Shown piece after piece: positions 25,895 through 39,453 of a DNA stretch of 39,908 bases; position 1 is the stretch's first letter; each line of letters starts with the position of its first letter. The DNA lies in the NCBI GenBank assembly GCA_018671575.1, contig JABHHM010000026.1, forward strand, positions 1 to 39,908, read 5' to 3'. Below the pieces are notes generated by a model, which saw only the letters and a list, made by a program, of their open reading frames with translations, did not search any database and was not told the DNA's origin. Position numbers and translations under genes: made by a program. This stretch comes from Methylococcales bacterium (GTDB lineage: Bacteria > Pseudomonadota > Gammaproteobacteria > JABHGC01).

Positions 25895-27199
25895 ATGAAA
25901 AGTGATAACCAGCTACACCCCACATTGAATCAGGGGAACTCAATGAAACCAAAGAACATCATCAAAAAAATCAAACAAACGGGACAGTCTACCATTTTAA
26001 TGTTGACTGTTTTAGCCGTTGCATTACCTGCCATTGTCATTTTATATAATTCAGGAAAAGCCACCACAACCAAAATGGAAGTGGTGAATGCGGCTGATGC
26101 ATCGGCTTACAGTGGTGCTATTTGGGCTGCTAGAAATCTGAATTTTATGGCTTACACCAATCGAGCCATGGTGTCTAACCATATATTGGTCGGGCATTTT
26201 GTCAGTTATGCTTCCTGGTTAAGGTATGTTGATGATGATATGGGTAAAATAGCCTCAGTGCTGTCTTTTATTCCTTTTGTCGGTTCAGCGGTGAGTGCCA
26301 TTTCATCCGTGGTCTCATTAACGAGAACATTAACTGATGTGGCAGGGCATGTTTTGGTGCCGATGGTGGATGCTTTGAACACTTTTTATCACAGTGCCCA
26401 AGTTTTAGCGAAAATGTATGGTTTTTATGCCGTACCAGAAATTATGAAAGAAACAGCCAAGCGTTATGACCCTGAAATAAAAATCAATGACATTGATGCC
26501 TTGGATGATGACTTTGTTAAATACAGTGGTATCTATAATCTGGTGCGGAATAACGTGGCAATGTTTACCTTTACCAAACGTTATACGCCGAGTAGTGATG
26601 GTGGCATTATTGCGGGACTAACCCGAGACAGTTTTGGTGGCTCAAGGGCATGGATAGAAGGCAGTGCCAGAAGTACAGGATCAAAAACCCTTTTTCCAGT
26701 CAAAATAAGAAAAAGAGGAGAAACCACCATGACGGATGATATGTCTGACTGGAATGCCCACGATGAAAGAGAGGTTAGCATGTTTAACTTCAAAAAAATG
26801 AAATGGGGTGATTGGTCAACTTTGAGTAGCGGTGAAGCATCTGCCAGAGGATATTGGAGTCAATACCAAGGGGTTAGAGGTTATTATGGCTTAAATAATC
26901 AAACGGGAATAGATCAAACCTTGTATTTAACTGCATTTGCCAGTAAACCGACTGAAAACATGAAGCTTGACAGTAAAATGGGAATCAATGATAGAGGTCC
27001 TAATGATCCTTATAAAGTTCACAATATTTCTGCCGTCAGTCGAGCATTGATTTATCACAAGCGTCCAGATGCTAGTTTGGGCTGGGGGTTAGGTAATGGT
27101 AATTCAAATGCATCACCCAGTGGTGAATATTCGAACCTGTTTAACCCTTTTTGGGAAGTTAGATTGGACGAAGTTAAATTAGCTGGCTTACCAATATGA
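25895..27199 (+). CDS. TadG-like tip pseudopilin
   Basis: G|QSTIL plus TM without Glu5, NAADASAYSGA, LNFMAYTNRAMV, C-terminal E..NLFNPFWEVRL; true start may be the later MKPK. Confidence 0.8.
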   Translation: MKSDNQLHPTLNQGNSMKPKNIIKKIKQTGQSTILMLTVLAVALPAIVILYNSGKATTTKMEVVNAADASAYSGAIWAARNLNFMAYTNRAMVSNHILVGHFVSYASWLRYVDDDMGKIASVLSFIPFVGSAVSAISSVVSLTRTLTDVAGHVLVPMVDALNTFYHSAQVLAKMYGFYAVPEIMKETAKRYDPEIKINDIDALDDDFVKYSGIYNLVRNNVAMFTFTKRYTPSSDGGIIAGLTRDSFGGSRAWIEGSARSTGSKTLFPVKIRKRGETTMTDDMSDWNAHDEREVSMFNFKKMKWGDWSTLSSGEASARGYWSQYQGVRGYYGLNNQTGIDQTLYLTAFASKPTENMKLDSKMGINDRGPNDPYKVHNISAVSRALIYHKRPDASLGWGLGNGNSNASPSGEYSNLFNPFWEVRLDEVKLAGLPI

Positions 27200-27328: not shown

Positions 27329-28102
27329 ATGGAGAGCAGGATGTTTAAATCAAAAGGTCAGGCTACCTCAGAATTTGTGATCATAGGCACAGCCGTTTTT
27401 GTCCCCATTTTTTTAATGTTGCCAATAATGAGCAAATACACCGACATGAAACAAAAAGCATCAGAAGCCAGTCGTTATGCTGTGTGGGAAAGAACAGTCT
27501 GGTCTGATCCGAATGCCAGTTGGAATGATGGTGAAAATACCAAAACTGATGCAGTGATTGCACAGGAAATTAATGATCGTGTTTTTGGTCATATTTTACA
27601 AGGAATGACCTCAAATAGAGTAGAAAATACAACCTGGAAAGATGAAAATGGTGCTCCTCTGATTAAAAGTGTCAAATTAAACAAAATGAATGAAGAAGAA
27701 GTGCCTGTTAGACCGACTCAAGCTCTGGCAGTGTTTGAACAAGTGGCATATGGTGGAGGAATTTTTGAAACATTGGGTCATAAAGGTTTAGATTTAGGTA
27801 AAAAGACATTCTCAGATGCCGAAGTTGAAGTGACCGTGAATAATATCACTGTGCCAGGTGTTGTTTCGGAAATAAAAATGACCTCGTCTGCAGGTATTTT
27901 AAGTAGCAGTTGGTCAGCCCCATCTCAGCAAGAGTTTTATGATCGTTTAAGTAAGCTTGGTCCTGCCAAAGGTGTAAACACTTTAATGTCTCCAGCAGAT
28001 TTACTTTGTCAAATTCCGTTGTTATATAAAGAAGGCTGTAATGCTAAAACAGTTGAGCTAGAAGCAGATTGGACGGTGGTTCCCAATGCAAAGAAAAAAT
28101 AA
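27329..28102 (+). CDS. TadE/TadF-like pseudopilin
   Basis: G|QATSEF plus TM, ASRYAVWERTVW; probable start at MFKSKG (27341). Confidence 0.8.
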   Translation: MESRMFKSKGQATSEFVIIGTAVFVPIFLMLPIMSKYTDMKQKASEASRYAVWERTVWSDPNASWNDGENTKTDAVIAQEINDRVFGHILQGMTSNRVENTTWKDENGAPLIKSVKLNKMNEEEVPVRPTQALAVFEQVAYGGGIFETLGHKGLDLGKKTFSDAEVEVTVNNITVPGVVSEIKMTSSAGILSSSWSAPSQQEFYDRLSKLGPAKGVNTLMSPADLLCQIPLLYKEGCNAKTVELEADWTVVPNAKKK

Positions 28103-28740: not shown

Positions 28741-28987
28741 TGAAAATAAAAGTCGTTTAATCGCACATTGTGAATGTTCATTCTATATATCATTATGATA
28801 CATAGGGACAAAATTTATTTAATATTTCTCATTTGCAAAGATAAAAGCGGTGAAAGTTTGTGTAATAAAAAATATTTTCGTGACCTATACTAAAATTAGT
28901 GATTAAAAAATCAGTGTTCATTAAGTGTTTAATCAATGCAGTTTGCTCGTTAGGCCATGGTGCTCTAACAAAATAAGGAAAATAAAG

Positions 28988-31858
28988 ATGAAAAAAATAT
29001 TTCATTTCATATTTTGTGCCATGTTATCAGTGATGTCATCTTCGTCGTATGCGTTCAAAATTGATACGCATATATGGATTGGTCAGCAGATTATTAATGA
29101 CCTGAAATCAAATATACCCCATGGTCAATTAACATTTAATTATGATTTCGATGAATTTGGTAATTCTAAAGAAGTTAAAATTCCCATAGTTTGGGATACT
29201 TATATGAAAGTTACGGGTTTTTTTGAAGCATTTTTATTAGGAAATATGGGACCCGATGCTACACCTGATATGATTGTTGGACAGAGCGTTATTCATCCAG
29301 GAATTAATCCAGAAAAAAACAATGCAGATGATTGGAAAACAAATCAATGGTTGATGCACATGAGAACTTATGCATATCTGCTAATGGAGGACAAAGGTCC
29401 TTGGGTTTCACATCAACTTGTATCAAATCCTTATTATCATGGTGTTTTAGCTCATGCCGCTGCCGATGTTTTTGCTCACACTTATGTTAATCAATATTCA
29501 GGTGATGTGTTTGATTTAAACGATGGAGAAACCCTGGTTGAACAACGGCATTATGTATTGGAAGGATTTATCTCAAAGCATACACCACCTCTCAAAAATC
29601 ATAAAGGGGATTTGATTGGTGAACCATGGGAAGTAGTACAATCCGACGCCAACACCACAGGAGATCTTGTGAAGTATTCCGAATATGTCAGGGATGTATT
29701 GATATATAACGACGATGTACAAGAGCAATATTTGAAAGTGCCAACGGCTACTCATTTGGCTGCATTTTATGAATTTAGAAAGGGAATTGATAATCTGGAA
29801 GAAAAGTATAAAGAAATAGATAACCAAATAAGTAAGTATCTGCTTCCTTTTATAGCTCGAGACAGTGGTTTAAATAGTATTCTTGTAGGTGACTTTAGTG
29901 AGCTTAATAATCTGGCTACAAAAGTGCTTGAGGAACTGAATAAAGGTAATGAGGACATAAGGCAATTAGTTTCTGATTTGGAGTTTGAATCACGTATAGC
30001 CAATGAAAAAATATTTAACGTGCTGAAATCGACTGTTTTGGATGTGAAAGATTTAGAAAAAGAATGGGTGTCAACACTACAAAAATGGCGTGAAAAGTTA
30101 ATAGAAGTTGCCAGTTTACCTGCAATCCCTGTTTGTCCGAAGATATTTGATAAAGTATGCGAAGAACAAAAAAGAATCATTGAGCAATCCAATAAACTGA
30201 TTATTGATGCGTCTAATGCGCTTGAAAATAAAACTTTGTCTCTAAAAAATGACCTGATTGATAGAACAATTGATATCACTGAAGAAATTCAAAAAATTCC
30301 AGAAATATTGTTAAAAATAGATCAGGCTATTGCGGAACTGGAAAAATTGGGAATGGGGTTTTTGTGGCCTAAACCTTATAACAAGTTCGACTTCATTTTC
30401 ATTAACTGGAAAGAACGCTACGACACCGCCATGTCTGAATACGTCAAAGCATCCACTCAATCCATGATCAATGCAATGAACCCCAACGCAAGCGCATTAG
30501 AACCTATGGCAAAATGGTTCGAATGCCACCATTTGAGTATCATTGGTTTACCTGGTCAGGAAGTTTGTGGTATTAAAAATATGCTGGGTGAAATTCATGA
30601 GGCAGTCAAACACATTACAAAAATTTTAGACCAAGCCAATATTCTGGGTTCATCATTGCCATTACCCACACCCTCTGATTTATTAGAATTTGTAGACAAA
30701 GAAGTACAAAGCTTAGTCGATAAGTTTAAGGCTAAAGCAATAGATCAACTCCCCGAAAATGTTAAACAAATATTGACTCTTCTGGATGAAGACATAACGG
30801 ATGAAACCTTAAATAAATATTTCACCATAAAAGAAACGGGCTACCCTAAAAAAGGCTTAATCCAGATTCCTAATATGGCAAAAAGAATCAAGGCAGAAAT
30901 GCACTTGACGCCCGATGGACATTTTGATCCTAAAAAATACCCTGTGATTTATAATGCCTTGGTGATGGCAAAATTATCTTTGCTGGACAAAGAGGGATTT
31001 ACGAAATTAGCCGAAGCATTGAATGTTACAGATCACACTCAATATATGGGTGAGTTTAAAAATATTGTCGGACAAGCATTTAAAAATATTGATGTTGGTT
31101 ATCAATGGATGGAAAATCCACCACCTGTGCCAAATAGCTTGAATAAATATAATCTTGCTGATATCAAATCCTATTCAACAGATTTTGGTTTTCTTCCTTG
31201 GAAAGGCGATATGCGGGATAAAATGTTCAGGAAACTATTTATTGGTCCATTGTCTCCAGGTATCGATAGTCCAAAAGAAATCGGTTTTTCGAATATTGTC
31301 GGCTCACAATATCCCTATAAAGTCTGTTCTGCAAATCCCTTTCCTGATGATATCTATGACAAAAGATGTCTGGGAGAACCCAATGATGGGGGTAACGGAG
31401 GTGGTGGTGGAAGCGGGGAGGGAGGTTCTTGTGCCTCAGAATCAGCTACACAAAAAATGCCATATCAGTCAATATATTTAAAAAACTTACGCTCATTTCG
31501 TGACAATGAATTGAGCCAGTCTGAGAATGGTCAAAAAATTACCCAACTGTATTATAAGCATTCCAAAGAAGTGAAAGAAATGATGAAAAAAGATGTTTAT
31601 TTAAGATTGTTGGGTATTCGATTAATATTGCGATCTGTCTATGCCTTTAATCCAAAACAAGTTAAAAAGGACGTTGTACCTCTGGATAAAAATTATTCAA
31701 AACTTGCCATCCGTTTTCTTGAACAAGCCCAGAAAAATGGCAGTGAAGAACTTGTTGATGATTTTAATGAATTAAAAGTATTGGTCGGATCACTTAAAGG
31801 ATTGACCGCACAAGAAGTGCTGGATGAAATCAAATCAATGAGTGATATTTCAGAATAA
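28988..31858 (+). CDS. secreted Zn-dependent phospholipase C/P1-nuclease-family protein with CFI-box-CTERM-like tail
   Basis: Signal peptide SSYA|FKIDTH; GPD, HAAADVFAH and RHYVLE Zn-ligand pattern; Gly linker, then C...LRSFRDNEL...G.KI..LYYKHS; AAGGA RBS before the ATG at 28988. Confidence 0.7.
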   Translation: MKKIFHFIFCAMLSVMSSSSYAFKIDTHIWIGQQIINDLKSNIPHGQLTFNYDFDEFGNSKEVKIPIVWDTYMKVTGFFEAFLLGNMGPDATPDMIVGQSVIHPGINPEKNNADDWKTNQWLMHMRTYAYLLMEDKGPWVSHQLVSNPYYHGVLAHAAADVFAHTYVNQYSGDVFDLNDGETLVEQRHYVLEGFISKHTPPLKNHKGDLIGEPWEVVQSDANTTGDLVKYSEYVRDVLIYNDDVQEQYLKVPTATHLAAFYEFRKGIDNLEEKYKEIDNQISKYLLPFIARDSGLNSILVGDFSELNNLATKVLEELNKGNEDIRQLVSDLEFESRIANEKIFNVLKSTVLDVKDLEKEWVSTLQKWREKLIEVASLPAIPVCPKIFDKVCEEQKRIIEQSNKLIIDASNALENKTLSLKNDLIDRTIDITEEIQKIPEILLKIDQAIAELEKLGMGFLWPKPYNKFDFIFINWKERYDTAMSEYVKASTQSMINAMNPNASALEPMAKWFECHHLSIIGLPGQEVCGIKNMLGEIHEAVKHITKILDQANILGSSLPLPTPSDLLEFVDKEVQSLVDKFKAKAIDQLPENVKQILTLLDEDITDETLNKYFTIKETGYPKKGLIQIPNMAKRIKAEMHLTPDGHFDPKKYPVIYNALVMAKLSLLDKEGFTKLAEALNVTDHTQYMGEFKNIVGQAFKNIDVGYQWMENPPPVPNSLNKYNLADIKSYSTDFGFLPWKGDMRDKMFRKLFIGPLSPGIDSPKEIGFSNIVGSQYPYKVCSANPFPDDIYDKRCLGEPNDGGNGGGGGSGEGGSCASESATQKMPYQSIYLKNLRSFRDNELSQSENGQKITQLYYKHSKEVKEMMKKDVYLRLLGIRLILRSVYAFNPKQVKKDVVPLDKNYSKLAIRFLEQAQKNGSEELVDDFNELKVLVGSLKGLTAQEVLDEIKSMSDISE

Positions 31859-31886
31859 ATGACAAGTATTATAAGGATATAATGTA

Positions 31887-32011
31887 GGAGTTCTGTCTGA
31901 GAACTCGTCTTTCCGCTGGTTCTGTGTTAAAAATGGTCGCAAAATGCTCATTTATACACATAAACTGTACTTTTCGACAATTTTATGCCTTGATTTGACG
32001 AAAATCTGAGT
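31887..32011. mobile_element. MITE family A, degenerate copy with truncated right end
   Basis: GGAGTTCTGTCTGAGAACTCG...TTTTATGCCTTGATTTGACGAAAATCTGAGT. Confidence 0.85.
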
Positions 32012-32048
32012 GAGTGGTGATATCGGTTAAATTATTTAAACCACTGAA

Positions 32049-32230
32049 TAAGGGGAAGTGAAATAAATAAACGTCCAAATTGTGCAGGATTTTTGTTCGC
32101 CTTTGAGGCGCAAAAATAGGCGTATAGTCGAACTATACAACTATTTTTGCAACAAAAAAGGTGGACAAAAAAATTACTATGCCTTTTGGGTACAAGCAAG
32201 TTGGATGTTTATTTATTGCGAATTCCCTAA
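32049..32230. mobile_element. MITE family B copy with an insert of about 19 bp, overlapping the rdgC 3' end
   Basis: Near-identical to 19674-19836; ends TAAGGGGAAGTGAAATAAATAAA / TTTATTTATTGCGAATTCCCTAA. Confidence 0.88.
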
Positions 32231-33145
32231 GCCTGAATCTTTCTCTATAGCACCACCGTGAATTTCCATTAGCCGTGGTAAAAAGTTGGAAATTTCCATC
32301 GCCATGATTGAAAAGTCGGCATCAAATTGTGCTTCAACTGATTCATCATCAGATTGTTCGGCTTGATCTAGCACCAGATCATCATACTTAATGCGTTTGA
32401 CTGAAAGGTCATCACATAATAAGAATGAAAATTTCTCATCCCAATTCAGTGCCAGGCGTGTACAGCTTTTTCCAGCTTCCAGATGATTGGTTATTTCGGT
32501 GGATGTTAAGTCAATATTTTTACATCGAATAATACCACCATCAGATTCTAAATCTCTCAGTTCGCATTCATTTTCAATGCTAAAATCTGCAGGAGGAGGG
32601 TTTTCAGTCATCCATGAGGTGAGAATGTTACTGGTTAATGTGTGAGTTTTTGGTGGTTCAACAGGCAGTGATCCAAGGCAGTTTCTGAGTAATACCGTTA
32701 ATTCTTCTGCTTTATTTCGACTGGCAGAATCCACGATTAGCCAATTGTTTTTTAAGTCAAAGTAAGCATAAACTTTGGATGTTTTGGTAAAGGCTTTGGT
32801 GGTTAGGTCATGTAATACTTCTTCACGAATTTCTTCTTTTTCTTTTTTTCGGACTTTGCGCATTTGCGTGTCTTCAATTTCTTGAACTTTCTCATCAACG
32901 TATTCGCGAACGACGGAGGCAGGTAAAACTTTTTCTTCTTTTTGAGCACAGACCATGAGGTAGCCGTCAATGCTTTTGAAAAGCTCATCGTGTTTTTTAT
33001 CAACGGGTGAAATCAAACCATAAGAAAACATTTCCAGTTTTCCGCAAGGTCTGAATTTGTGTTTTTGTAGATCTTCTTGAATTTGTTCTACCGATTGAGT
33101 TAACGGCTTGTAAAAACGGTATAGACAGAGATTTTTAAACCACAT
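32213..33145 (-). CDS. rdgC: recombination-associated protein RdgC
   Basis: MWFKNL.LYR, EEKVLPASVV, LR..LGSLP, LAL.W, D.SVKRIK, FDADF..M..E. Confidence 0.95.
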   Translation of the reverse strand: MWFKNLCLYRFYKPLTQSVEQIQEDLQKHKFRPCGKLEMFSYGLISPVDKKHDELFKSIDGYLMVCAQKEEKVLPASVVREYVDEKVQEIEDTQMRKVRKKEKEEIREEVLHDLTTKAFTKTSKVYAYFDLKNNWLIVDSASRNKAEELTVLLRNCLGSLPVEPPKTHTLTSNILTSWMTENPPPADFSIENECELRDLESDGGIIRCKNIDLTSTEITNHLEAGKSCTRLALNWDEKFSFLLCDDLSVKRIKYDDLVLDQAEQSDDESVEAQFDADFSIMAMEISNFLPRLMEIHGGAIEKDSGLGNSQ

Positions 33146-33214
33146 GAATTTTTACTGCTCCCTAATATTATTGGAATGAAAATAGGGCGTTATTATGCGT
33201 AAGATTCACTGAGA

Positions 33215-33823
33215 CTACAAGCGTTTTAATACCACAACGAGGTGCAATGAGATTTTTTCCATTTCGATGATTAAATTTTGTACATGGGTGATGAAATGGT
33301 TATAAAATGCCAGTGTTGGTAGGGCAATAATCATTCCGAAGGCAGTGGTTATTAAGGCTTCTGAAATACCACCCGCCAGCATGTTGGCATTGACTGTTTG
33401 TTGTTGAGAAAGGGTGGCAAAAACAGAAATCATACCCAAAACAGTTCCTAATAACCCCATCAGTGGGGCAGCACTGGCGATGGTGCCTAAAGTGGATAAA
33501 TATTTCCTAATAATGGGTATTTCTTGTCGGCCAGCTTCTTCCAATATTTCTTTTAATTCAGATTCGCTTTTTTGATAGTTCAAAATGCCTGCCAATATAA
33601 TGTTGGTCATGGGGATTGGGTTTTGTTTGCAATAGGCGGTGGCTTCTGGAATTTTATTGTCCAATAAAATGGTTTCAATTTGTTCGATGATTTTGTTGTT
33701 GATGACTCTATTGCGTCTTAATGCCATTGATTTGATCACGATGATCACCAGTCCCCAGATAAATAAAGCGGTTAGAGGGTAGATCATTAACCCGCCATTT
33801 TTGATGATTTCACTAATTTCCAT
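33215..33823 (-). CDS. MotA/TolQ/ExbB proton channel family protein (ExbB/TolQ type)
   Basis: GG..IYPL TM1; LGTIASAAPLMGLLGTVLGMI; LAGGISEALITTAFG...ALP. Confidence 0.93.
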   Translation of the reverse strand: MEISEIIKNGGLMIYPLTALFIWGLVIIVIKSMALRRNRVINNKIIEQIETILLDNKIPEATAYCKQNPIPMTNIILAGILNYQKSESELKEILEEAGRQEIPIIRKYLSTLGTIASAAPLMGLLGTVLGMISVFATLSQQQTVNANMLAGGISEALITTAFGMIIALPTLAFYNHFITHVQNLIIEMEKISLHLVVVLKRL

Positions 33824-33837
33824 GATAATTTCCTCTG

Positions 33838-35349
33838 CTATTTTTTCTGTTTTGGCAACAATACAATTTCAATTCGGCGGTTGATTGCTCTGCCTTGTGG
33901 GGTTTTATTATCGGCAACTGGACGATATTGAGAGTAGCCGACAGCGGATAAGTAGGAGGCAGGAATGCCGACTTCATTTTCAAAAAATCGAACCACATTA
34001 ACTGATCTTGCGGCACTCAAACCCCAGTTAGTGGAGAGTAATCCTTGTCTATTTTTAATGGGGACATCATCAGTGTGCCCTCCAATTTGAATTTCCAGTC
34101 CTTGCATTTTATTTTTCAATAATTTGCCAACTTTTTTCAGTAGTTCAAAGCCATCTGATTTTAAAGTAGAACTACCAGAATCGAATAATATTTTATCCGA
34201 CAATTGAATAATTAGGCGATCTTGTTGTTGATTGATTTCTAATTGGTTATTGGTTAGATAAGACTTTAAATTATTATTTAACCCTGCTCTTGCTTGATTA
34301 ATTTGAGATAGTTTTTCGGCATTTTTTTCCGCTTCATTTTTGTAAATAGCCAGTTGTTTTTCTAAATCATTATTTTCATCCGATAAATTATTGATGTTTT
34401 CCAGCAATGTTTCTTCGTTGTCTTTATTGGCATCGTTGGTTTGTGTCAGTTGTTGGATTTTTAACTGGTGTCGTAGTAAATCAGAATTTAGATTTTTGAT
34501 CTTTTCTGTCTGTTGTATTTTGGCCGTAGAATAATTAAGGATTTTTTTGTTGGCAGAGGCAATGACTGTGTTTAAACCTGAAATGGTTTGATCAGATTCG
34601 GTCGTCACTTTTTTGTATTGTGTTGCTAACTGCACAACACGGCTATTTAATGATTCAATATCTGTTTTCTGTTGATTAAGCATTGCTGCTTTTTGCTTGA
34701 TTTCATTGTTTTGCTGTTCAATGCTCAAGTTTCTCATATTGACCAGGTTGGTCATTGCTTCGTGCTGACTGTTGAGTTTTTTTAGGGATGTTTGAGTTGA
34801 CTGATTATTTTCTGAGAGGGTTTTATAACGATCAACCAATTGGATGATTTTAGAATTGAGTGAGTTGATGTCTGTCGATTGTTGTTTGATGGTGGTATTT
34901 GCCTGCAACATGTTTTTGTTGGTTTGATTAATCATCGTTTCTTTTTCTGCCAACTGATTCTGTGTACTGAGAATGGTATCCTGTTTTTGGTTGATGATGT
35001 TTTGTTTGGATCTATTTTGGTTGGTTAAGCTTTGCAGTTGCTGGTTGAGTTGTTTTAGCTTGTCATCCATGATAACAATGCGAGATGAATGCTGGTCGAG
35101 AGACTGTTCTTTTTGTTGAATTTGATTGTTTAGCTGAGACTGTTTGTTTTCATAGTCTGACAATTGCTGTGTTAATTCAGTTTTTTCCTGTTTTAAACTG
35201 GATAGGGCGTTTTTAAGTTCTTCAAGTTTTTCAGGGCTGATGAAAGAGGTGCTGACCGCAAAAAATAAAACCAACAGAAAGACGACGTCAATGAGTGGTG
35301 TCATATCAAGTGACAATCGGCTCTCTTGTTGGAAATTATCAAGTTTCAT
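33838..35349 (-). CDS. chimeric ExbD-type TM / long coiled coil / MotB-type OmpA-like peptidoglycan-binding protein
   Basis: N-terminus DMTPLIDVVFLLVLFF; Q/N/K-rich heptads at about aa 40-365; C-terminus LFDSGS, GHTDDVPI, NWGLSAARS, GY..YRP, NRRIEI. Confidence 0.88.
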   Translation of the reverse strand: MKLDNFQQESRLSLDMTPLIDVVFLLVLFFAVSTSFISPEKLEELKNALSSLKQEKTELTQQLSDYENKQSQLNNQIQQKEQSLDQHSSRIVIMDDKLKQLNQQLQSLTNQNRSKQNIINQKQDTILSTQNQLAEKETMINQTNKNMLQANTTIKQQSTDINSLNSKIIQLVDRYKTLSENNQSTQTSLKKLNSQHEAMTNLVNMRNLSIEQQNNEIKQKAAMLNQQKTDIESLNSRVVQLATQYKKVTTESDQTISGLNTVIASANKKILNYSTAKIQQTEKIKNLNSDLLRHQLKIQQLTQTNDANKDNEETLLENINNLSDENNDLEKQLAIYKNEAEKNAEKLSQINQARAGLNNNLKSYLTNNQLEINQQQDRLIIQLSDKILFDSGSSTLKSDGFELLKKVGKLLKNKMQGLEIQIGGHTDDVPIKNRQGLLSTNWGLSAARSVNVVRFFENEVGIPASYLSAVGYSQYRPVADNKTPQGRAINRRIEIVLLPKQKK

Positions 35350-35399
35350 TTTGTTATCCTAGTTGCAACGTATTCAGAGTAATAACGAATCAGTCAGTT

Positions 35400-36539
35400 T
35401 TACTTTTTCTTTCTTTTTTCTAAGCGTGATACTCTTTCCCAGATAGGATGAGACTCTTTCTTTCGACGAACATCTCTTTCCAATAAAAATGCCAGATTTT
35501 TCAAAGCAATGATGAAGTTGGATTCTTTTTTCAGGCAACACTCAAAAGAGTGGATGGCTTTTTCTGGGTTTTTTTCTCGTAAATCAAACCCGATACTGGA
35601 GAAAACCATTTCAGTTTCACCAATTTTGACGATATCACCAAAATTTAATTTGGCATTTTCAATTTCTTTTCCGTTATGAAAAGTGCCGTTGGTGCTTTCG
35701 TTGTTCTCAATGACAAAATAATTGTCCTGATATCGAATGATTGAATTCGTTCTTGATGACTGTGTGTCATCTAACATAATGGTATTGATGTCATCTCTAC
35801 CGATGGTCGATTCAGTAAAATGTAAATGAAAAATGGTGTCAATATCATTGCCAGAAATGATTTTTAAATAGGGTAAAGATTTATAATATTCATTGTCTTT
35901 TTCCAATGATGGGATAATGGATGCCATCATAGTCTGGTCGGCATCGCTCATTATTGTTGCATCATCAACCGACGTTTTTGGTGGTGTTTTATCGCCATTA
36001 AACATGGTCTCTAAAAAGGGTAATGTGCCATCATCTGTTTTGGATTTTTTCAGTTGTGCATTGTTGCCATCTTGTAATTGAACAATGCCTGAGATTTTAC
36101 CACCAACCATACTGAATTGGTCTCCAGGGTGTAAATCTTGTAAGCTTTGTTGGCATAAATAAGGAATGACGGCATTTTCTATGGTTTGTACCAAGCCAAA
36201 GTTGTGTTCTTGTTTTTTATGTCTTATTTGTGATTTTGCGATGAGTACATAGACTTCATCTGCTTTGAATTCAGTGATGTAATGGTTTTTTGATAGAGAG
36301 GTTAGTTTGTTTTTCAATTTTGAAATTTCAGCCTGATTGCTGATGATGAATTGTTCTCTATCTTTGATTTTATGGTCAAGTTCATCTTGAACATCGGCCA
36401 ATAAAATTTTATTATTTTTATAACGATTATAAAAAAATTTATTCGACAGGATTAAAACGATCACCATTAGATTAAGGCTTAATATAATGTGTAATCCGTA
36501 TTCATTTAATAATTCATGTATTAGCTCCATGTCCTGCAT
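35400..36539 (-). CDS. membrane-anchored FHA-domain protein with C-terminal TPR-like helices
   Basis: TM at about aa 16-32 followed by basic residues; FHA motifs IGR, SR, STNGT, L..GD.V.IG; A...F..CL...NF..A..NLA. Confidence 0.82.
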   Translation of the reverse strand: MQDMELIHELLNEYGLHIILSLNLMVIVLILSNKFFYNRYKNNKILLADVQDELDHKIKDREQFIISNQAEISKLKNKLTSLSKNHYITEFKADEVYVLIAKSQIRHKKQEHNFGLVQTIENAVIPYLCQQSLQDLHPGDQFSMVGGKISGIVQLQDGNNAQLKKSKTDDGTLPFLETMFNGDKTPPKTSVDDATIMSDADQTMMASIIPSLEKDNEYYKSLPYLKIISGNDIDTIFHLHFTESTIGRDDINTIMLDDTQSSRTNSIIRYQDNYFVIENNESTNGTFHNGKEIENAKLNFGDIVKIGETEMVFSSIGFDLREKNPEKAIHSFECCLKKESNFIIALKNLAFLLERDVRRKKESHPIWERVSRLEKRKKK

Positions 36540-36797
36540 CCTTTGGTATTTTCTTCGATCTTATTAAATTAATCCTAGCAGAATTCATTCATTTGTTATT
36601 TTAAATTTGATGTAATGATTCCAGTAATTTTTGTAGTATACCTGAAAACGAATTAAAAGTTAAGTAAATTATTATAATCTAATATAGATTGTTGGGATTG
36701 TTTAACAATAAAGCCCTTAAAATCAGTATAAAACTTGATGTTTGCTGTTAACTATTTAATATTAGAATATATAGCTACAAAAAATTAGGAGTGGGTT

Positions 36798-38351
36798 ATG
36801 CAAGATAAGGAAAAATTGATCGTTTTTGACACAACATTGCGAGATGGTGAACAAAGTCCAGGTGCATCAATGACTTGTGATGAAAAAGTACGCATAGCCA
36901 AAGCATTGGAAAAGCTACAAGTAGATGTCATTGAGGCAGGCTTTCCTGTGGCAAGTCAAGGTGATTTTGACGCAGTGACATCGGTTGCAAAAACAGTTAA
37001 AGACAGTGTTGTTTGTGGCTTGGCAAGAGCGTTAGATAAGGATATTGACCGAGCTTCAGAAGCATTAAAACATGCCAATGCCTCTCGTATTCATACTTTC
37101 ATTGCAACATCGCCCATTCACATGAAAATGAAGTTACGCATGGAGCCTGATCAAGTCGTTGAGCAGGCAATCCATTCAGTTAAACGAGCGAGAAACTATA
37201 CTGACAATGTTGAATTTTCCCCTGAAGACGCGGGTCGATCTGATTTGGATTTTTTATGCCAAATCATTGAAAAAGTCATTGATGCTGGGGCAAGTACCAT
37301 CAATATCCCTGATACTGTGGGTTATAATGTTCCCATCCAGTTTGGTCATTTGCTTAAAAACTTGATTGAGAGAATTCCCAATGCGGATAAAGCCATTTTT
37401 TCAGTGCATTGTCACAATGATTTGGGTTTGGCGGTGGCAAACTCATTGTCAGCCGTGATGAATGGTGCCAGACAAGTTGAATGTACCATTAATGGTTTAG
37501 GAGAAAGAGCGGGCAATGCAGCATTAGAAGAAGTGGTGATGGCAGTTAAGACTCGAAACGATATTTTTCCTTGTTATACTGAGTTGGATACCACACAAAT
37601 TGTGCAATGCTCACGCCTAGTATCTGGCATTACAGGATTTCCAGTGCAACCCAATAAAGCCATTGTGGGAGCCAATGCATTTGCTCATGAATCAGGCATT
37701 CACCAAGATGGTGTGTTAAAAAACCGAGAAACCTATGAAATTATGCGAGCGGAAGATGTGGGTTGGAGTGCTAATCGTATGGTTTTGGGTAAACACTCAG
37801 GCAGAAATGCTTTCAAAACAAGATTACACGAATTAGGTGTGACCATCACCTCTGAAGAAGATTTGAACGCTGCTTTTACTCGTTTTAAAGATTTGGCGGA
37901 TAAAAAGCATGAAATTTTTGACGAAGATTTACAGGCTTTGGTGACAGATTCCCGATTGGCTGCCGATAACGAATGCGTCAAACTGATTTCAATGAAAGTC
38001 TGTTCCGAAACAGGTGAAACTCCCAAAGCAAAAGTTGTCTTATGGGTCAATGAAAAAGGTGAAAATGAAGCTGTTTGTTTGGGAAGTGGTCCTGTTGATG
38101 CGGCTTTTAAAGCGATTGAAGAAATCGTTAAAAGTGGTGCGAAATTATTGTTATATTCCGTCAGCAACATTACTAAAGGAACAGATTCACAAGGGGATGT
38201 TTCTGTTAGATTAGAGCGTGATGGAAAAATAGTGAATGGCAATGGCAGTGATACGGATATTGTTATTGCATCAGCTAAAGCTTATATTAATGCATTGAAT
38301 AAAATGGTTGTTCAGGCCGATAAAAAACATCCTCAAGGATCGAATGTATAA
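36798..38351 (+). CDS. leuA: 2-isopropylmalate synthase
   Basis: [36 protein letters not shown], regulatory GPVDA. Confidence 0.98.
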
Positions 38352-38369
38352 TTCTACATTAATCAATTC

Positions 38370-39155
38370 ATGACCATGCCAAATCAAAAACATTCATCAA
38401 GACAACTGCAATACCTTGAGGCAATGGGGATCAATCTTTGGGTTTCTCGTGATTTTCAGGAGACTGATATTGTTGCGGATGTCATAGAGTCAAAGATTGA
38501 TATCGAGCCAGAGTTATTGCTCGAAGAGCCTGAAAGCAGCGTGGATTTGCCTCAAATAATGACTGAACAATCAACTGATCAGCCTAAAAATACTTTGGAT
38601 CAGTTGCGTCAGGAAGTCAGTGTTTGCCAAAAATGCCAATTACACTCTGAGCGCACTCAAACTGTATTTGGTGTCGGCAATAGTCAGTCTAATATACTCT
38701 TCATTGGTGAAGCTCCAGGTCATGATGAAGACAAACAAGGCGAGCCCTTTGTTGGCAGAGCTGGGCAATTATTAAACTCAATGTTGTTTGCCATTGGTTT
38801 AAGGCGAGAACAAATATTCATTGCCAATATACTAAAATGTCGTCCACCCAATAATCGTAACCCGCTGGTTGGGGAAATAGAACAATGCATTCCTTATTTA
38901 AAGCAGCAAATAGAACTGGTTAACCCAAAAGTGATTGTAGTGGTTGGTCGAGTTGCTGCCCATGCTTTGTTAAATACTGAGCTACCAATGGCAAAATTAC
39001 GTGGTCAGCAACACTATTTGCCAGAAACTCAATTGCCCATTATTGTCACCTATCATCCTGCTTATTTACTTCGATCTCCATTGGCAAAACAAAAGTCCTG
39101 GGAAGACTTGTTGATGTTGTATGAATTGGATAAAAATTTATTTCAAAGCAAGTAA
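38370..39155 (+). CDS. uracil-DNA glycosylase, family 4 ([4Fe-4S])
   Basis: CQKCQL..R.QTVFG.G, GEAPG..ED..G.PFVG.AG, KCRPPNNR, YHPAYLLR. Confidence 0.93.
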   Translation: MTMPNQKHSSRQLQYLEAMGINLWVSRDFQETDIVADVIESKIDIEPELLLEEPESSVDLPQIMTEQSTDQPKNTLDQLRQEVSVCQKCQLHSERTQTVFGVGNSQSNILFIGEAPGHDEDKQGEPFVGRAGQLLNSMLFAIGLRREQIFIANILKCRPPNNRNPLVGEIEQCIPYLKQQIELVNPKVIVVVGRVAAHALLNTELPMAKLRGQQHYLPETQLPIIVTYHPAYLLRSPLAKQKSWEDLLMLYELDKNLFQSK

Positions 39156-39210: not shown

Positions 39211-39453
39211 ATGACCATTCTAAATGCAACGGAAGCCAGATCAAAGTTATATAACCTGATTGATGAAACATCTGAGAGCCACCAACCCATCGTCATTACT
39301 GGAAAACGAGCCAATGCCGTATTGATATCAGAAGAGGATTGGAATGCAATTTCTGAGACATTGTACCTTTTGTCCATTCCAAGCATGAGAGAATCAATCA
39401 AAAAAGGCATGTCGGAATCTGTCAGTGATTGTTCTGAGGAGCTTGATTGGTGA
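39211..39453 (+). CDS. yefM: Phd/YefM family antitoxin
   Basis: NATEARSKLY.LIDE....H.PI.ITGKR.NAVL.SEEDW.AI.ETLYLLS.P.M. Confidence 0.93.
   Translation: MTILNATEARSKLYNLIDETSESHQPIVITGKRANAVLISEEDWNAISETLYLLSIPSMRESIKKGMSESVSDCSEELDW

What the first reader, a model, noticed from the sequence alone, without database searches (positions are those of the whole stretch)
33215..36539. Candidate new ion-driven motor system: FHA membrane protein + ExbD/MotB chimera + ExbB/TolQ subunit
Seen: three tightly spaced co-oriented genes (gaps of 50 and 14 bp) in the order FHA protein, B-type subunit, A-type subunit, with no tonB/tolA, flagellar or Zorya effector genes beside them. Known: MotAB, ExbBD, TolQR and ZorAB are 5:2 proton-driven motors, normally encoded A before B. 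ExbBD/TolQR pass force to TonB/TolA, while MotB/ZorB anchor to peptidoglycan. FHA proteins occur with TolQR-like motors in the myxobacterial Agl-Glt gliding machinery. Inference: this is a wall-anchored ExbB-type motor whose output or control runs through a cytoplasmic phosphothreonine-binding partner (envelope sensing, anti-phage sensing or surface motility).
Basis: partly seen in the sequence, partly recalled or inferred. Interest (0 to 1): 0.82.

Follow-up and report, generated by a model that had tools for sequence, protein, structure and literature searches.

The report
Wall-anchored TolQ-type motor with FHA partner
A rare but conserved three-gene set in a marine bacterium appears to build a proton-driven membrane motor that is tied to the cell wall by a long stalk and paired with a phosphothreonine-reading protein on the inside; what the machine does is unknown.

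Summary
Three minus-strand genes, with gaps of 50 and 14 nt, encode a membrane-anchored FHA protein, a B subunit and a 202-aa TolQ/ExbB-class A subunit. The B subunit joins a TolR/ExbD-type trans-pore helix (Asp21) to a ~320-aa proline-free stalk and a MotB-type peptidoglycan-binding domain.

The trio is a unit: 13 of 14 distinct loci from several lineages keep FHA-B-A in that order, while the flanking genes differ. It is rare. The A ortholog was found in 4 of 401 sampled genomes of the class and in 2 of 401 of the phylum.

A is 60-71% identical across the loci and keeps the pore threonines. The FHA partner's most conserved part is an invariant C-terminal helical motif, not its phosphothreonine pocket. 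A fold test of A with the FHA C-terminal half gave a weak pass (0.48 against 0.00 in controls). Contigs from RNA libraries bridge all three genes.

No defence, Tol-Pal, Ton, flagellar or gliding genes accompany the trio. Three literature searches found no description of it.

Verdict: a new variant of the 5:2 motor kind. Its nearest relatives are the computationally proposed TolQ-like/TPH-vWA motors and the GltG-AglR contact. The function is inferred, not shown.

The parts
35400..36539 (-). Gene 1: membrane-anchored FHA partner (379 aa; perhaps 376 aa from the ATG at 36530). It has an N-terminal TM helix continuing into a cytoplasmic helix, a small beta-barrel, a disordered linker, an FHA domain and three C-terminal helices.
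   Evidence: ORF. Pfam FHA 3.2e-12. AlphaFold2 model with mean pLDDT 82.6: helix 2-84, strands 96-151, pLDDT below 50 over residues 155-215, FHA 224-314, helices 325-376. Basic residues follow the TM helix in all aligned N-termini, so the N-out, C-in topology is inferred.
36087..36254 (-). Small beta-barrel domain of the FHA protein (residues 96-151).
   Evidence: Folded alone with pLDDT 93.7. No PDB match at E <= 0.001; the best was E 0.07 with TM about 0.5, to OB/SH3-like barrels. Present in 48 of the 78 family members examined and absent in the L036 form.
35598..35870 (-). FHA domain (residues 224-314).
   Evidence: Foldseek top hits are GarA/OdhI FHA domains: TM by target 0.87-0.95, 30% identity, E 1e-9. 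The window copy keeps GR, SR and STNGT but has Asn where the family has His.
35412..35567 (-). C-terminal three-helix (TPR-like) module carrying the invariant motif ALKNLAFLLERD.
   Evidence: Invariant columns L346, L349, A350, F351, E354 and W367 in 22 sequences. The motif LKNLAFLLE is found in 23 of the 28 strict-motif hits. pLDDT is 93-97. The nearest Atlas clusters are FHA+TPR proteins with a score of 0.87, which is a lead only.
33838..35349 (-). Gene 2: B subunit (503 aa). It has a 14-residue cytoplasmic tail, a TolR/ExbD-type trans-pore helix with Asp21, a ~320-aa helical stalk and a MotB-type OmpA-like peptidoglycan-binding domain.
   Evidence: Pfam ExbD and OmpA. PDB search: B. subtilis MotB 6ysl at 99.6 bits, residues 328-500. 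NCBIfam MotD/MotB models give 114-127 bits, all below their cut-offs.
35236..35307 (-). Trans-pore helix (residues 15-38, DMTPLIDVVFLLVLFFAVSTSFIS) with Asp21.
   Evidence: Nearly invariant in 14 of 14 orthologs, with Asp at position 21 in all. The N-terminal 60 residues match 134-160-aa ExbD/TolR-sized ORFs in other genomes.
34270..35229 (-). Periplasmic stalk (residues 41-360), a predicted continuous coiled coil.
   Evidence: It has no proline and 2 glycines in 320 residues. Orthologous stalks are 183-432 aa and proline-free in 10 of 11. Weak matches to SMC/JetC coiled-coil models.
33841..34269 (-). MotB-type peptidoglycan-binding domain (residues 361-503).
   Evidence: Pfam OmpA 1.1e-16. 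PDB hits to MotB, MotS and PomB periplasmic domains.
33215..33823 (-). Gene 3: A subunit (202 aa). It has three TM helices and a ~75-residue cytoplasmic helical hairpin. It belongs to the TolQ/ExbB class but passes neither equivalog.
   Evidence: PF01618 1.3e-33. TIGR02796 tolQ scores 98.4 bits against a cut-off of 221, and TIGR02797 exbB scores 70.7 against 206. Thr127 and Thr160 align with TolQ residues 145 and 178 of 8odt and are invariant in 17 sequences. The protein is 60-71% identical across 17 loci.
36540..36663 (-). Leader and candidate promoter of the trio.
   Evidence: Contigs from RNA libraries extend to 36611-36616 in X5, X6 and X10. A sigma-70-like site TTAACT-17-TATACT lies at 36663..36635 with 9 of 12 matches, but such sites are no commoner here than in shuffles (20 against 17.4).

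Best explanation
The three genes encode one machine.

(1) A and B form a proton-conducting stator-like complex of the MotA/TolQ/ExbB-MotB/TolR/ExbD kind. Its 5:2 stoichiometry is presumed. A TolQ-class A ring surrounds a dimer of B trans-pore helices that carry Asp21.

(2) Unlike TolR or ExbD, B continues directly into a long, rigid coiled-coil stalk. The stalk ends in a MotB-type domain that fixes it to peptidoglycan. Proton flow should therefore turn, or switch the shape of, the A ring against a wall-anchored axle, as in a flagellar stator.

(3) The work or signal goes into the cytoplasm, not to the outer membrane. The exposed tip of A's cytoplasmic hairpin is nearly invariant. I propose that it is gripped by the FHA-plus-three-helix module of gene 1, which is held at the membrane by its own N-terminal anchor.

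(4) The FHA pocket then links the motor to a threonine-phosphorylated cytoplasmic protein. My preferred reading is a kinase-dependent clutch or adaptor that decides when and where the motor engages. The reverse flow, with the motor's state reported inward, is nearly as likely.

Steps 1 and 2 rest on sequence. Step 3 rests on conservation and a weak fold test. Step 4 is inference. The cellular process served is most likely cell-envelope upkeep or remodelling.
For: Unit of inheritance:
- FHA-B-A occurs in that order in 13 of 14 distinct loci: the window, G001, G002, G216, L022, L023, L024, L026, L028, L029, L031, L034 and L036. L039 has B-A only.
- The metagenome loci were retrieved with the A subunit alone, so they were not selected for the FHA gene. 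Flanking genes differ between loci.

Channel residues:
- Asp21 is present in 14 of 14 B subunits.
- Thr127 and Thr160 of A are invariant. They align with the TolQ positions that PMC12204202 (passages) describes as the essential threonine ring; the residue numbers come from the 8odt alignment.

Chimeric build:
- A is closest to TolQ and ExbB.
- The B head is closest to MotB.
- The stalk is proline-free and 183-432 aa long.

Partner contact:
- A is the most conserved of the three proteins at 60-71% identity, with an invariant hairpin tip (IPEA.A.CK...PM).
- The FHA protein is 28-48% identical overall but has an invariant C-terminal motif.
- Complex prediction of A with FHA residues 216-379 gave a verdict of weak support: score 0.48, best of 3 controls 0.00. 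The mark was reached by 58 of 80 solved complexes and by 2 of 110 mismatched pairs. At 0.60 or under it was reached by only 7 of those 80, and by both mismatches that passed. The runs agree in at least 93% of contacts and the partner's pLDDT is at least 81. My own alignments were used, so these counts hold only roughly.

Precedent: in the Agl-Glt model, the FHA domain next to GltG's TM helix is predicted to sit on the cytoplasmic face of the AglR pentamer (passages of PMC11761067).

Phospho-signalling context:
- The own genome has 16 Pkinase matches over the cut-off and 9 FHA matches.
- Accessory neighbours at some loci are a Ser/Thr kinase with a cNMP domain (L022), a 2xFHA-lytic-transglycosylase protein (L026), and receiver domains (G001, G002, L034).

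Transcription:
- 7 RNA-library runs hold 70-95% of the stretch's words.
- In the 4 runs laid, contigs bridge the B-FHA junction in all 4 (X5 record 21, X6 record 29, X10 record 6, X12 record 13). They bridge the A-B junction in 2 (X5 record 21 and X6 record 28).
Against: - No experiment exists on any member of this family.
- The fold test is only a weak pass. By the tool's own statement such a pass is more often wrong than right unless the guess was already likely. No interface was returned, so the 'hairpin tip' contact is my inference.
- 5 of 22 family members (G002, L034, P0004, P0006, P0007), forming one subclade, have lost pThr-pocket residues (Arg to Asn, Ser to Gln, NGT lost). The window copy has Asn for the family's His.
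- The G001 ortholog of B lacks the OmpA domain altogether. In L023, B is cut by an insertion sequence. In L029 it is in two ORFs.
- L039 has no FHA gene within the 10-kb locus.
- No kinase is conserved with the module: 1 of 14 loci has one.
- A straight coiled coil of 183-432 residues would be about 27-64 nm, at 0.15 nm per residue (a recalled figure). That is longer than the distance to the wall, so the geometry is unexplained.
- RNA-library contigs cannot exclude carried-over DNA, and they do not prove a single transcript (tool caveats).
Confidence: 0.5

Rival explanations
1. A compact Tol-Pal analogue. B combines the roles of TolR (axle), TolA (long helical reach) and Pal (wall binding). 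PMF-driven A-B cycles tether or release the envelope layers during growth or division. The FHA protein only tunes this, or localises it.
For: By sequence A is closest to TolQ (68.6 bits; NCBIfam tolQ is the best hit). The stalk is a long proline-free helix and the head is OmpA-like, as Pal is. A 2xFHA-lytic-transglycosylase gene abuts the module in L026. The window lies among housekeeping genes: sucAB-lpd, secDF, recC, leuA.
Against: The own genome already has a closer TolQ-like gene with a 140-aa TolR/ExbD-sized partner (C213). No TolB, CpoB or outer-membrane component accompanies the module at any locus. The module is too rare for a core envelope function: 4 of 401 and 2 of 401 genomes. G001 retains the module without the wall-binding head.
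Confidence: 0.2
2. A Zorya-like anti-phage or envelope-breach sensor. The wall-anchored B detects envelope damage, the A ring turns, and the FHA protein relays an alarm to cytoplasmic effectors encoded elsewhere.
For: The logic matches ZorAB, a wall-anchored stator with cytoplasmic output. PADLOC ZorB models hit the B head (7.9e1 bits, E 9.4e-23). The distribution is patchy and rare while A is highly conserved across lineages labelled Methylococcales, Magnetococcales and Gammaproteobacteria, as expected for a transferable accessory module.
Against: A and the FHA protein match no PADLOC model. There is no nuclease, helicase or other effector gene at any of the 14 loci. A has only a ~75-residue cytoplasmic hairpin and no long ZorA-like tail. 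The flanks are housekeeping genes, not defence islands. No ortholog was found on viral contigs (best 34% identity), and none of the FHA protein on plasmids.
Confidence: 0.1
3. An energiser for a surface machine encoded elsewhere: gliding as in Agl-Glt, a pilus or type II secretion system, or a type I system as with SiiAB. The FHA protein would be the adaptor to that machine.
For: GltG-type FHA contact with a TolQ-like motor is the nearest precedent. SiiAB is a non-flagellar, peptidoglycan-binding B-before-A proton channel that serves a secretion system (passages of 10.1101/641415). In L022 the module sits between type II secretion genes, judged by reading the ORFs; this was not tested with a family search.
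Against: No Glt, Sii, pilus or secretion gene is conserved with the module; only 1 of 14 loci has T2SS neighbours. The NCBIfam GltG hit covers the FHA domain only (33 bits against a cut-off of 650). The FHA protein has no periplasmic part that could reach such a machine.
Confidence: 0.1
4. The B-A pair is a motor, but the FHA gene is only a conserved upstream neighbour or regulator of something else, with no physical link to the motor.
For: L039 has B-A without it. The fold test was only a weak pass and gave no interface. Neighbouring genes alone pass such tests at a low but real rate (tool description).
Against: 13 of 14 loci keep the FHA gene immediately upstream, on the same strand, with short gaps or overlaps, while the flanks change. 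Both controls with unrelated partners, and the control with A replaced, scored 0.00. All its full-length relatives seen in genomic context lie beside B-A.
Confidence: 0.1

Closest known systems
TolQ-TolR and ExbB-ExbD (Tol-Pal and Ton motors)
   Same: A has three TM helices and the PF01618 core, and its best sequence matches are TolQ and then ExbB. B's TM helix is of the ExbD/TolR type with the essential Asp.
   Different: A fails both equivalog cut-offs, and its cytoplasmic half does not align to TolQ. B has no TolR/ExbD periplasmic domain; it has a 320-aa stalk and a MotB-type head instead. There is no TolA/TonB, TolB or Pal in the locus. The gene order is B before A.
Flagellar stator MotA-MotB / PomA-PomB
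   Same: The B head is closest to the MotB, MotS and PomB peptidoglycan-binding domains, so the logic of a wall-anchored axle is shared.
   Different: A is not MotA-like (at most 25.9 bits) and lacks a large torque-generating domain. No MotB_plug match was found. No flagellar genes lie nearby. The mBio 2025 survey states that non-flagellar ('GIT') B subunits lack the OmpA-homologous domain (passages of PMC12505986); this family is an exception to that statement.
TolQ-like pentamers with trans-pore-helix vWA partners (a proposed class; Mol Biol Evol 2025, PMC12204202, section 8, passages read)
   Same: A TolQ-like A subunit is paired with a B-type protein that keeps only the Asp-bearing trans-pore helix and carries a foreign periplasmic head. 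There is no separate tolR/exbD gene. Earlier notes of this scan report FHA proteins and kinases beside those systems.
   Different: The head here is a MotB-type wall-binding domain on a coiled-coil stalk, not vWA. There is one B gene, not a heterologous pair. The dedicated TM-FHA-three-helix partner is not mentioned in the passages I read.
Agl-Glt gliding motor: AglRQS with GltG (structural model, PMC11761067, passages read)
   Same: An FHA domain of a membrane-anchored protein is predicted to sit on the cytoplasmic face of a TolQ-like pentamer.
   Different: GltG continues into a TonB-like periplasmic arm and belongs to a 17-protein machine. Here the FHA protein is wholly cytoplasmic beyond its N-terminal anchor, and no Glt genes are present. 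The NCBIfam GltG match is 33 bits against a cut-off of 650.
SiiA-SiiB of the Salmonella SPI-4 type I secretion system (10.1101/641415, passages read)
   Same: It is a non-flagellar proton channel whose B-type subunit binds peptidoglycan through a MotB-like domain. The B gene precedes the A gene.
   Different: SiiA is 210 aa with a disordered linker and no long stalk. It serves an adjacent secretion system and has no FHA partner.
Zorya ZorA-ZorB
   Same: It has a wall-anchored B, and ZorB models hit the B head. Its output is directed to the cytoplasm.
   Different: A matches no ZorA model and there are no ZorC/D/E-type effectors. ZorA's long cytoplasmic tail (recalled, not from a call) has no counterpart in the 202-aa A.
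Type VI secretion TssL-Fha (Agrobacterium; PMC3953482, title and abstract seen in the listing)
   Same: An FHA protein is paired with an inner-membrane protein that can carry an OmpA-like wall-binding end. TIGR03350 matches the B head.
   Different: No T6SS genes are present. The TagH model scores 27.7 bits against a cut-off of 120. B's cytoplasmic tail is 14 residues long with no conserved threonine: position 13 is Ser, Thr or Ala.

Membership tests
MotA/TolQ/ExbB-MotB/TolR/ExbD ion-driven motors (superfamily) | A subunit with the PF01618 channel core | tested here: met
   PF01618 at 1.3e-33, 115.9 bits against a cut-off of 22.9.
MotA/TolQ/ExbB-MotB/TolR/ExbD ion-driven motors (superfamily) | B subunit with a single TM helix bearing the conserved Asp | tested here: met
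   Asp21 lies in TPLIDV and is present in 14 of 14 orthologs. ExbD PF02472 scores 28.8 bits against a cut-off of 25.4.
MotA/TolQ/ExbB-MotB/TolR/ExbD ion-driven motors (superfamily) | Conserved pore-lining threonines in the last two TM helices of A | tested here: met
   Thr127 and Thr160 are invariant in 17 sequences and align with TolQ positions 145 and 178 in 8odt. That these positions are the essential ring is taken from PMC12204202 and from recall.
MotA/TolQ/ExbB-MotB/TolR/ExbD ion-driven motors (superfamily) | A5B2 assembly and proton conduction | not tested
Conduction needs an experiment.
TolQ (Tol-Pal) equivalog | Score over the curated TIGR02796 cut-off, and tolR-tolA-tolB-pal neighbours | tested here: not met
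   98.4 bits against a cut-off of 221. The neighbours are rdgC and leuA.
ExbB (Ton) equivalog | Score over the TIGR02797 cut-off, and a TonB partner | tested here: not met
   70.7 bits against a cut-off of 206. No TonB-like gene lies in the locus.
Flagellar stator MotAB | MotA-type A subunit, B with plug helix, and flagellar context | tested here: not met
   MotA models score 20-26 bits against cut-offs of 237-380. No MotB_plug hit. Only the MotB-type head is shared.
Zorya | ZorA with a long tail, plus ZorC/D or other effectors | tested here: not met
   PADLOC gives 0 families for A and for the FHA protein. ZorB models match only residues 335-502 of B.
TolQ-like + TPH-vWA motors (proposed class, PMC12204202) | Trans-pore helix with Asp, directly paired with a TolQ-like gene and no tolR/exbD | tested here: met
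   No other ExbD-like ORF was seen in the loci scanned.
TolQ-like + TPH-vWA motors (proposed class, PMC12204202) | vWA head; usually two heterologous TPH genes | tested here: not met
   The head is OmpA/MotB-type. There is one B gene per locus.
Agl-Glt gliding machinery | GltG/GltJ-type TonB-like arm and Glt genes | tested here: not met
   NF033760 GltG scores 33.2 bits against a cut-off of 650, over the FHA domain only. No Glt-like neighbours.
FHA domain (phosphothreonine reader) | FHA fold | tested here: met
   Pfam 3.2e-12. Foldseek to GarA/OdhI with TM by target 0.87-0.95.
FHA domain (phosphothreonine reader) | Pocket residues Gly-Arg, Ser-Arg/Lys, His and Asn-Gly-Thr. This motif list is recalled. 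| tested here: inconclusive
   The window copy has GR, SR and STNGT but Asn for His. Across 22 members: Arg in 19, Ser in 18, His in 19, NGT in 17. One subclade of 5 is degenerate. Binding itself cannot be tested here.

The most novel reading that the evidence does not exclude
This is a fourth way of using a 5:2 motor. A wall-anchored TolQ-class rotary motor delivers its work inward. It does not act on the outer membrane (Ton, Tol), a flagellar rotor (Mot) or a nuclease-recruiting tail (Zorya). Instead it acts on a dedicated membrane-tethered FHA adaptor. Proton flow and wall attachment would thereby be converted directly into the capture, release or movement of threonine-phosphorylated cytoplasmic proteins, giving a mechanical link between the state of the cell wall and Ser/Thr signalling.
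Probability: 0.2. Interest if true: 0.85.

Novelty: new variant of a known kind. Interest (0 to 1): 0.6.

Why it matters
Five-to-two ion-driven motors are a small set of machines that power flagella, nutrient import, envelope division, gliding and a phage defence. Each new partner set has revealed a new use of the same engine.

This family breaks a recent generalisation that non-flagellar B subunits lack a MotB/OmpA-type wall anchor. It also shows that a TolR-type axle can be fused to a very long stalk.

It adds a dedicated cytoplasmic FHA partner whose most constrained part is a motor-facing helical motif rather than its phosphopeptide pocket. It therefore offers a compact three-protein system of about 1,080 residues. 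In it one could test how the cytoplasmic face of a TolQ-class ring hands work or information to a partner, a question still open for Tol, Ton and Agl-Glt.

It appears to be transcribed in seawater communities, so it is not a dead relic.

Tried and rejected
- **Promoter and terminator scan**. There were 20 promoter-like sites against 17.4 expected, so the scan is uninformative. No minus-strand terminator-like site lies in either gap.
- **Uncovered stretch in the RNA libraries**. Contigs end at 36606-36616 and resume at 36799-36832, leaving the divergent leuA/FHA intergenic stretch uncovered. I read this as a possible transcript start. I do not use it as evidence.
- **Depth differences between genes**. 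Not usable, because these are contigs.
- **RNA searches.** Rfam found no family in the window and ARAGORN found none.
- **Foldseek of the beta-barrel domain**. No hit at E <= 0.001, so no family could be named.
- **Earlier notes of this scan.** Searches by place and by sequence found nothing.
- **First genome-contig scan with the FHA alignment**. It used one strict peptide pattern and returned only 3 loci, so it undercounts.
- **Tree of A subunits**. Module rows have short branches, and all other TolQ/ExbB-like rows lie beyond a branch with 80/99 support. The module was one side of a branch in only 18% of bootstrap trees, and the bootstrap had not settled. A single clade is therefore compatible but not shown.
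- **PilZ idea.** I considered that the beta-barrel might be a PilZ domain. Its DxxSxxG does not fit the PilZ motif as I recall it, and no fold match supports the idea.
- **TolA/TonB-like docking.** I considered docking of the FHA protein's TM helix through an SHLS motif. The His in the window copy is not conserved and the inferred topology is opposite.
- **Literature.** Three searches found no paper describing an ExbD-helix/coiled-coil/OmpA protein with a TM-FHA partner. One search failed on term syntax and was re-sent. These searches cover open-access text only, and the supplements of PMC12204202 and PMC12505986 were closed, so this clade could be listed there.

Full report
**What is there.** They are 36539..35400 (379 aa), 35349..33838 (503 aa) and 33823..33215 (202 aa), separated by 50 and 14 nt.

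Pfam calls are as follows:
- Protein 1: FHA, 3.2e-12.
- Protein 2: ExbD (28.8 bits against a cut-off of 25.4, residues 9-124) and OmpA (1.1e-16, residues 388-491).
- Protein 3: MotA_ExbB, 1.3e-33.

The flanks are rdgC, a 977-aa protein with a sub-threshold phospholipase-C match, leuA and a uracil-DNA glycosylase. The rest of the window is housekeeping: sucA/sucB/lpd, recC, secD/secF and a PilT-like ATPase. The FHA gene may begin nine bases later, at 36530. Database copies start at that Met, and an AAGGA lies eight bases before it.

**The A subunit.** The protein has 202 residues. From the sequence it has three hydrophobic helices and a ~75-residue loop between the first and second.
- Against solved structures it is closest to TolQ (68.6 bits), then ExbB (61.8). 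It is far from MotA (at most 25.9). Only its C-terminal half aligns.
- It fails the curated TolQ and ExbB equivalog cut-offs: 98.4 against 221, and 70.7 against 206.
- Thr127 and Thr160 align with TolQ positions 145 and 178 and are invariant in 17 orthologs.
- The own genome has 11 PF01618 matches. These include a closer TolQ-like gene with a 140-aa ExbD/TolR-sized partner, and MotA-like genes with OmpA partners. This is therefore an extra motor, not the cell's Tol, Ton or flagellar one.
- In a tree, the module's A proteins have short branches. All other TolQ/ExbB-like rows lie beyond a branch with 80/99 support, but monophyly is not firmly shown.

**The B subunit.**
- Residues 1-14 are a cytoplasmic tail.
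- Residues 15-38 (DMTPLIDVVFLLVLFFAVSTSFIS) are an ExbD/TolR-type helix with Asp21. The helix is nearly invariant, and the Asp is at position 21 in 14 of 14 orthologs.
- No ExbD/TolR periplasmic domain follows. Instead there is a 320-residue stretch with no proline, rich in Gln, Glu, Lys and Asn. It weakly matches SMC/JetC coiled-coil models.
- The C-terminal ~170 residues are closest to flagellar MotB (B. subtilis 6ysl, 99.6 bits, residues 328-500), then to MotS and PomB.

Orthologous stalks range from 183 to 432 residues.

**The FHA protein.** With a 22-sequence alignment, AlphaFold2 gives a mean pLDDT of 82.6. The model has these parts:
- One long helix (residues 2-84), comprising the membrane anchor and a cytoplasmic helix.
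- A small beta-barrel (96-151).
- A disordered linker (155-215).
- An FHA domain (224-314).
- Three C-terminal helices (325-376).

Basic residues follow the anchor in all aligned N-termini, so the bulk of the protein is inferred to be cytoplasmic. The FHA domain superposes on GarA/OdhI (TM 0.87-0.95 by target). The barrel, folded alone at pLDDT 93.7, has no PDB relative at E <= 0.001.

The most conserved segment is not the phosphopeptide pocket. It is the C-terminal motif ALKNLAFLLERD..K.E..P.W. Among 22 members the pocket residues are kept in most: Arg in 19, Ser in 18, NGT in 17. One subclade of five is degenerate, and the window copy has Asn where the family has His.

**Is the trio a unit?** Both other genomes of the same family carry it. 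So does one further genome of the class (G216).

A scan of metagenome contigs with the A alignment alone was unbiased with respect to the FHA gene. It returned 22 loci.
- 16 are orthologs, with an A-model score of at least 315 bits.
- 4 of those 16 contigs are too short to judge.
- Of the remaining 12, 11 have FHA-B-A. One (L039) has B-A only, with no FHA-like sequence by tblastn.
- The six distant A-like loci (30-42% identity) have neither partner.

After collapsing duplicates there are 14 distinct loci, and 13 hold all three genes in the same order. Flanking genes differ between loci.

Some loci carry extra neighbours:
- Receiver domains in G001 (as a receiver-kinase hybrid), G002 and L034.
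- A giant TPR protein in L023 and L024.
- A protein with two FHA domains and a lytic transglycosylase in L026.
- A Ser/Thr kinase with a cNMP-binding domain in L022.

Shared contig lengths in the protein searches also pair FHA and B proteins on five further contigs.

**How common is it?** The A ortholog (E <= 1e-60) was found in 4 of 401 sampled genomes of the class. It was found in 2 of 401 of the phylum, counting G000 each time; the other phylum hit is the L022 genome.

A profile of the FHA protein against 1.84 billion representatives gave 454 hits at E <= 1e-30, but many of these are multi-FHA proteins. Of 159 proteins I examined, 78 carry the FHA-plus-C-terminal module, and 48 of them also carry the barrel. 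Source names are generic: 'FHA domain-containing protein', 'OmpA family protein', 'chemotaxis protein MotB'. No ortholog was found on viral contigs, and none of the FHA protein on plasmids.

**Do the proteins touch?** A is 60-71% identical across lineages, against 28-48% for the FHA protein. A's invariant residues include the predicted tip of the cytoplasmic hairpin (I58, P59, E60, A61, C65, K66, P71, M72).

The verdict was weak support: score 0.48 (runs 0.50, 0.39 and 0.48), best of 3 controls 0.00.
- The mark was reached by 58 of 80 solved complexes and by 2 of 110 mismatched pairs.
- At 0.60 or under it was reached by only 7 of those 80, and by both passing mismatches.
- The runs agree in at least 93% of contacts, and the partner's pLDDT is at least 81.
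- No interface was returned. My own alignments were used, so the calibration holds only roughly.

This raises my odds of a contact modestly. It does not locate the contact.

**Is it expressed?** Twenty public seawater or marine runs hold at least half of the stretch's words. Seven of them are metatranscriptome libraries holding 70-95%.

Four of these were laid on 31500-38500:
- One contig (X5 record 21, 33591-36036) bridges both junctions. X6 record 28 (33324-34282) also bridges the A-B junction.
- Contigs of X6, X10 and X12 bridge the B-FHA junction.
- One (X5 record 20) bridges rdgC and A.

They do not show a single transcript, a strand or a level, and carried-over DNA cannot be excluded.

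**What it most likely is.** Sequence supports a proton-conducting A-B complex of the 5:2 kind, with a wall-anchored axle. No periplasmic or outer-membrane client is encoded, and the only conserved third protein is cytoplasmic and membrane-tethered. I therefore infer that the motor's partner is on the inside.

The nearest precedent is the predicted docking of GltG's FHA domain on the cytoplasmic face of the AglR pentamer (passages of PMC11761067). My preferred reading has the FHA protein as an adaptor or clutch. It would tie motor engagement to a threonine-phosphorylated protein. The genome has 16 Hanks-type kinase matches. The reverse direction of information flow is nearly as likely. The process served is probably envelope-related.

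**Points against a simple story.**
- G001 keeps the module without the wall-binding head.
- One subclade has a degenerate FHA pocket.
- No kinase is conserved with the module.
- The stalk looks too long for a straight reach to the wall.

**Comparison with what is known.**
- The mBio 2025 survey of MotAB relatives separates flagellar from 'generic' transporters. It states that generic B subunits lack the OmpA-homologous domain (passages). This family is an exception.
- The Mol Biol Evol 2025 paper proposes TolQ-like pentamers whose B-type partner is a trans-pore helix fused to a vWA head, with no tolR gene (section 8 passages). This family has the same logic with a different head, a single B gene and a dedicated FHA partner.
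- Earlier notes of this scan on other genomes pointed me to that paper. They report FHA proteins and kinases beside the vWA systems. They are unchecked leads.
- SiiAB shows that a peptidoglycan-binding, B-before-A proton channel can serve a non-flagellar machine, and it supplies an assay.
- Membership in Tol-Pal, Ton, flagellar stators, Zorya and Agl-Glt fails on tested defining features.

Three literature searches found no description of this trio. The supplements were closed.

**Verdict.** This is a real, conserved and probably transcribed three-gene module. It is a new variant within the 5:2 motor kind. Its function is unknown, and its mechanism is partly shown by sequence and partly inferred.

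Noticed in passing
window 32048-32232 (between the 977-aa gene and the 3' end of rdgC): A ~185-bp palindromic repeat. It gives 57 matches in the own genome, about 40 of them forward copies at 84-98% identity, many at contig ends. It folds into a long hairpin (MFE -66.8 kcal/mol, z = -5.4). It shows summed RNA-library contig depth up to ~500 with many variant loose ends. There is no Rfam match. It looks like a MITE/REP-like element and may explain the fragmented assembly of 524 contigs.
   Followed up: partly
window 32213-33145 (rdgC) and 33146-33214: An RNA-library contig (X5 record 20, 32257-33619) bridges rdgC and the A gene. No minus-strand terminator-like site lies between them. In this genome rdgC may be read through from the trio. 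rdgC is not a neighbour at other loci.
   Followed up: partly
L020 (G001) 5482-6282: The ortholog of B in this related genome is 266 aa. It ends in a Gln-rich low-complexity tail with no OmpA domain, and the A gene starts 19 nt later, so there is no room for a lost head. A receiver-histidine-kinase hybrid overlaps the end of A by 4 nt.
   Followed up: partly
L023 7929-10339 (same scaffold as L027): The B gene is split by an inserted transposase ORF (277 aa) into a 106-aa N-terminal piece and a 416-aa C-terminal piece. A giant TPR protein (over 1,300 aa) overlaps the end of A, and L024 has a similar 1,647-aa TPR protein.
   Followed up: no
L022 4956-6595 and flanks: A Ser/Thr kinase with a cNMP-binding domain lies directly upstream of the FHA gene. 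It is in two overlapping ORFs, from a frameshift or an assembly error. The module sits between genes that read like type II secretion components, judged by eye and not tested.
   Followed up: partly
L026 4224-6032 (minus strand): A 602-aa protein with two FHA domains and an SLT lytic transglycosylase domain lies directly downstream of the module, convergent with it.
   Followed up: no
window 28925-31858: A 977-aa protein whose N-terminus weakly matches zinc-dependent phospholipase C (24 bits, below the cut-off of 26.8). It has a Gly-rich stretch near residue 830 and is otherwise unassigned.
   Followed up: no
G000 contigs C145 and C100: Weak PF01618 matches lie inside 718-aa and 648-aa open frames. 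OmpA-like matches lie nearby on C145. These may be ZorA/ZorB-like or other long-tailed stators elsewhere in the genome.
   Followed up: no
window 39211-39453: An 80-aa Phd/YefM-type antitoxin (PF02604, 3.4e-18) lies at the window's end. No toxin gene was examined.
   Followed up: no
window 14783-16267, 25895-27199, 27329-28102: Three ORFs of 494, 434 and 257 aa have no Pfam match at E <= 1e-5.
   Followed up: no
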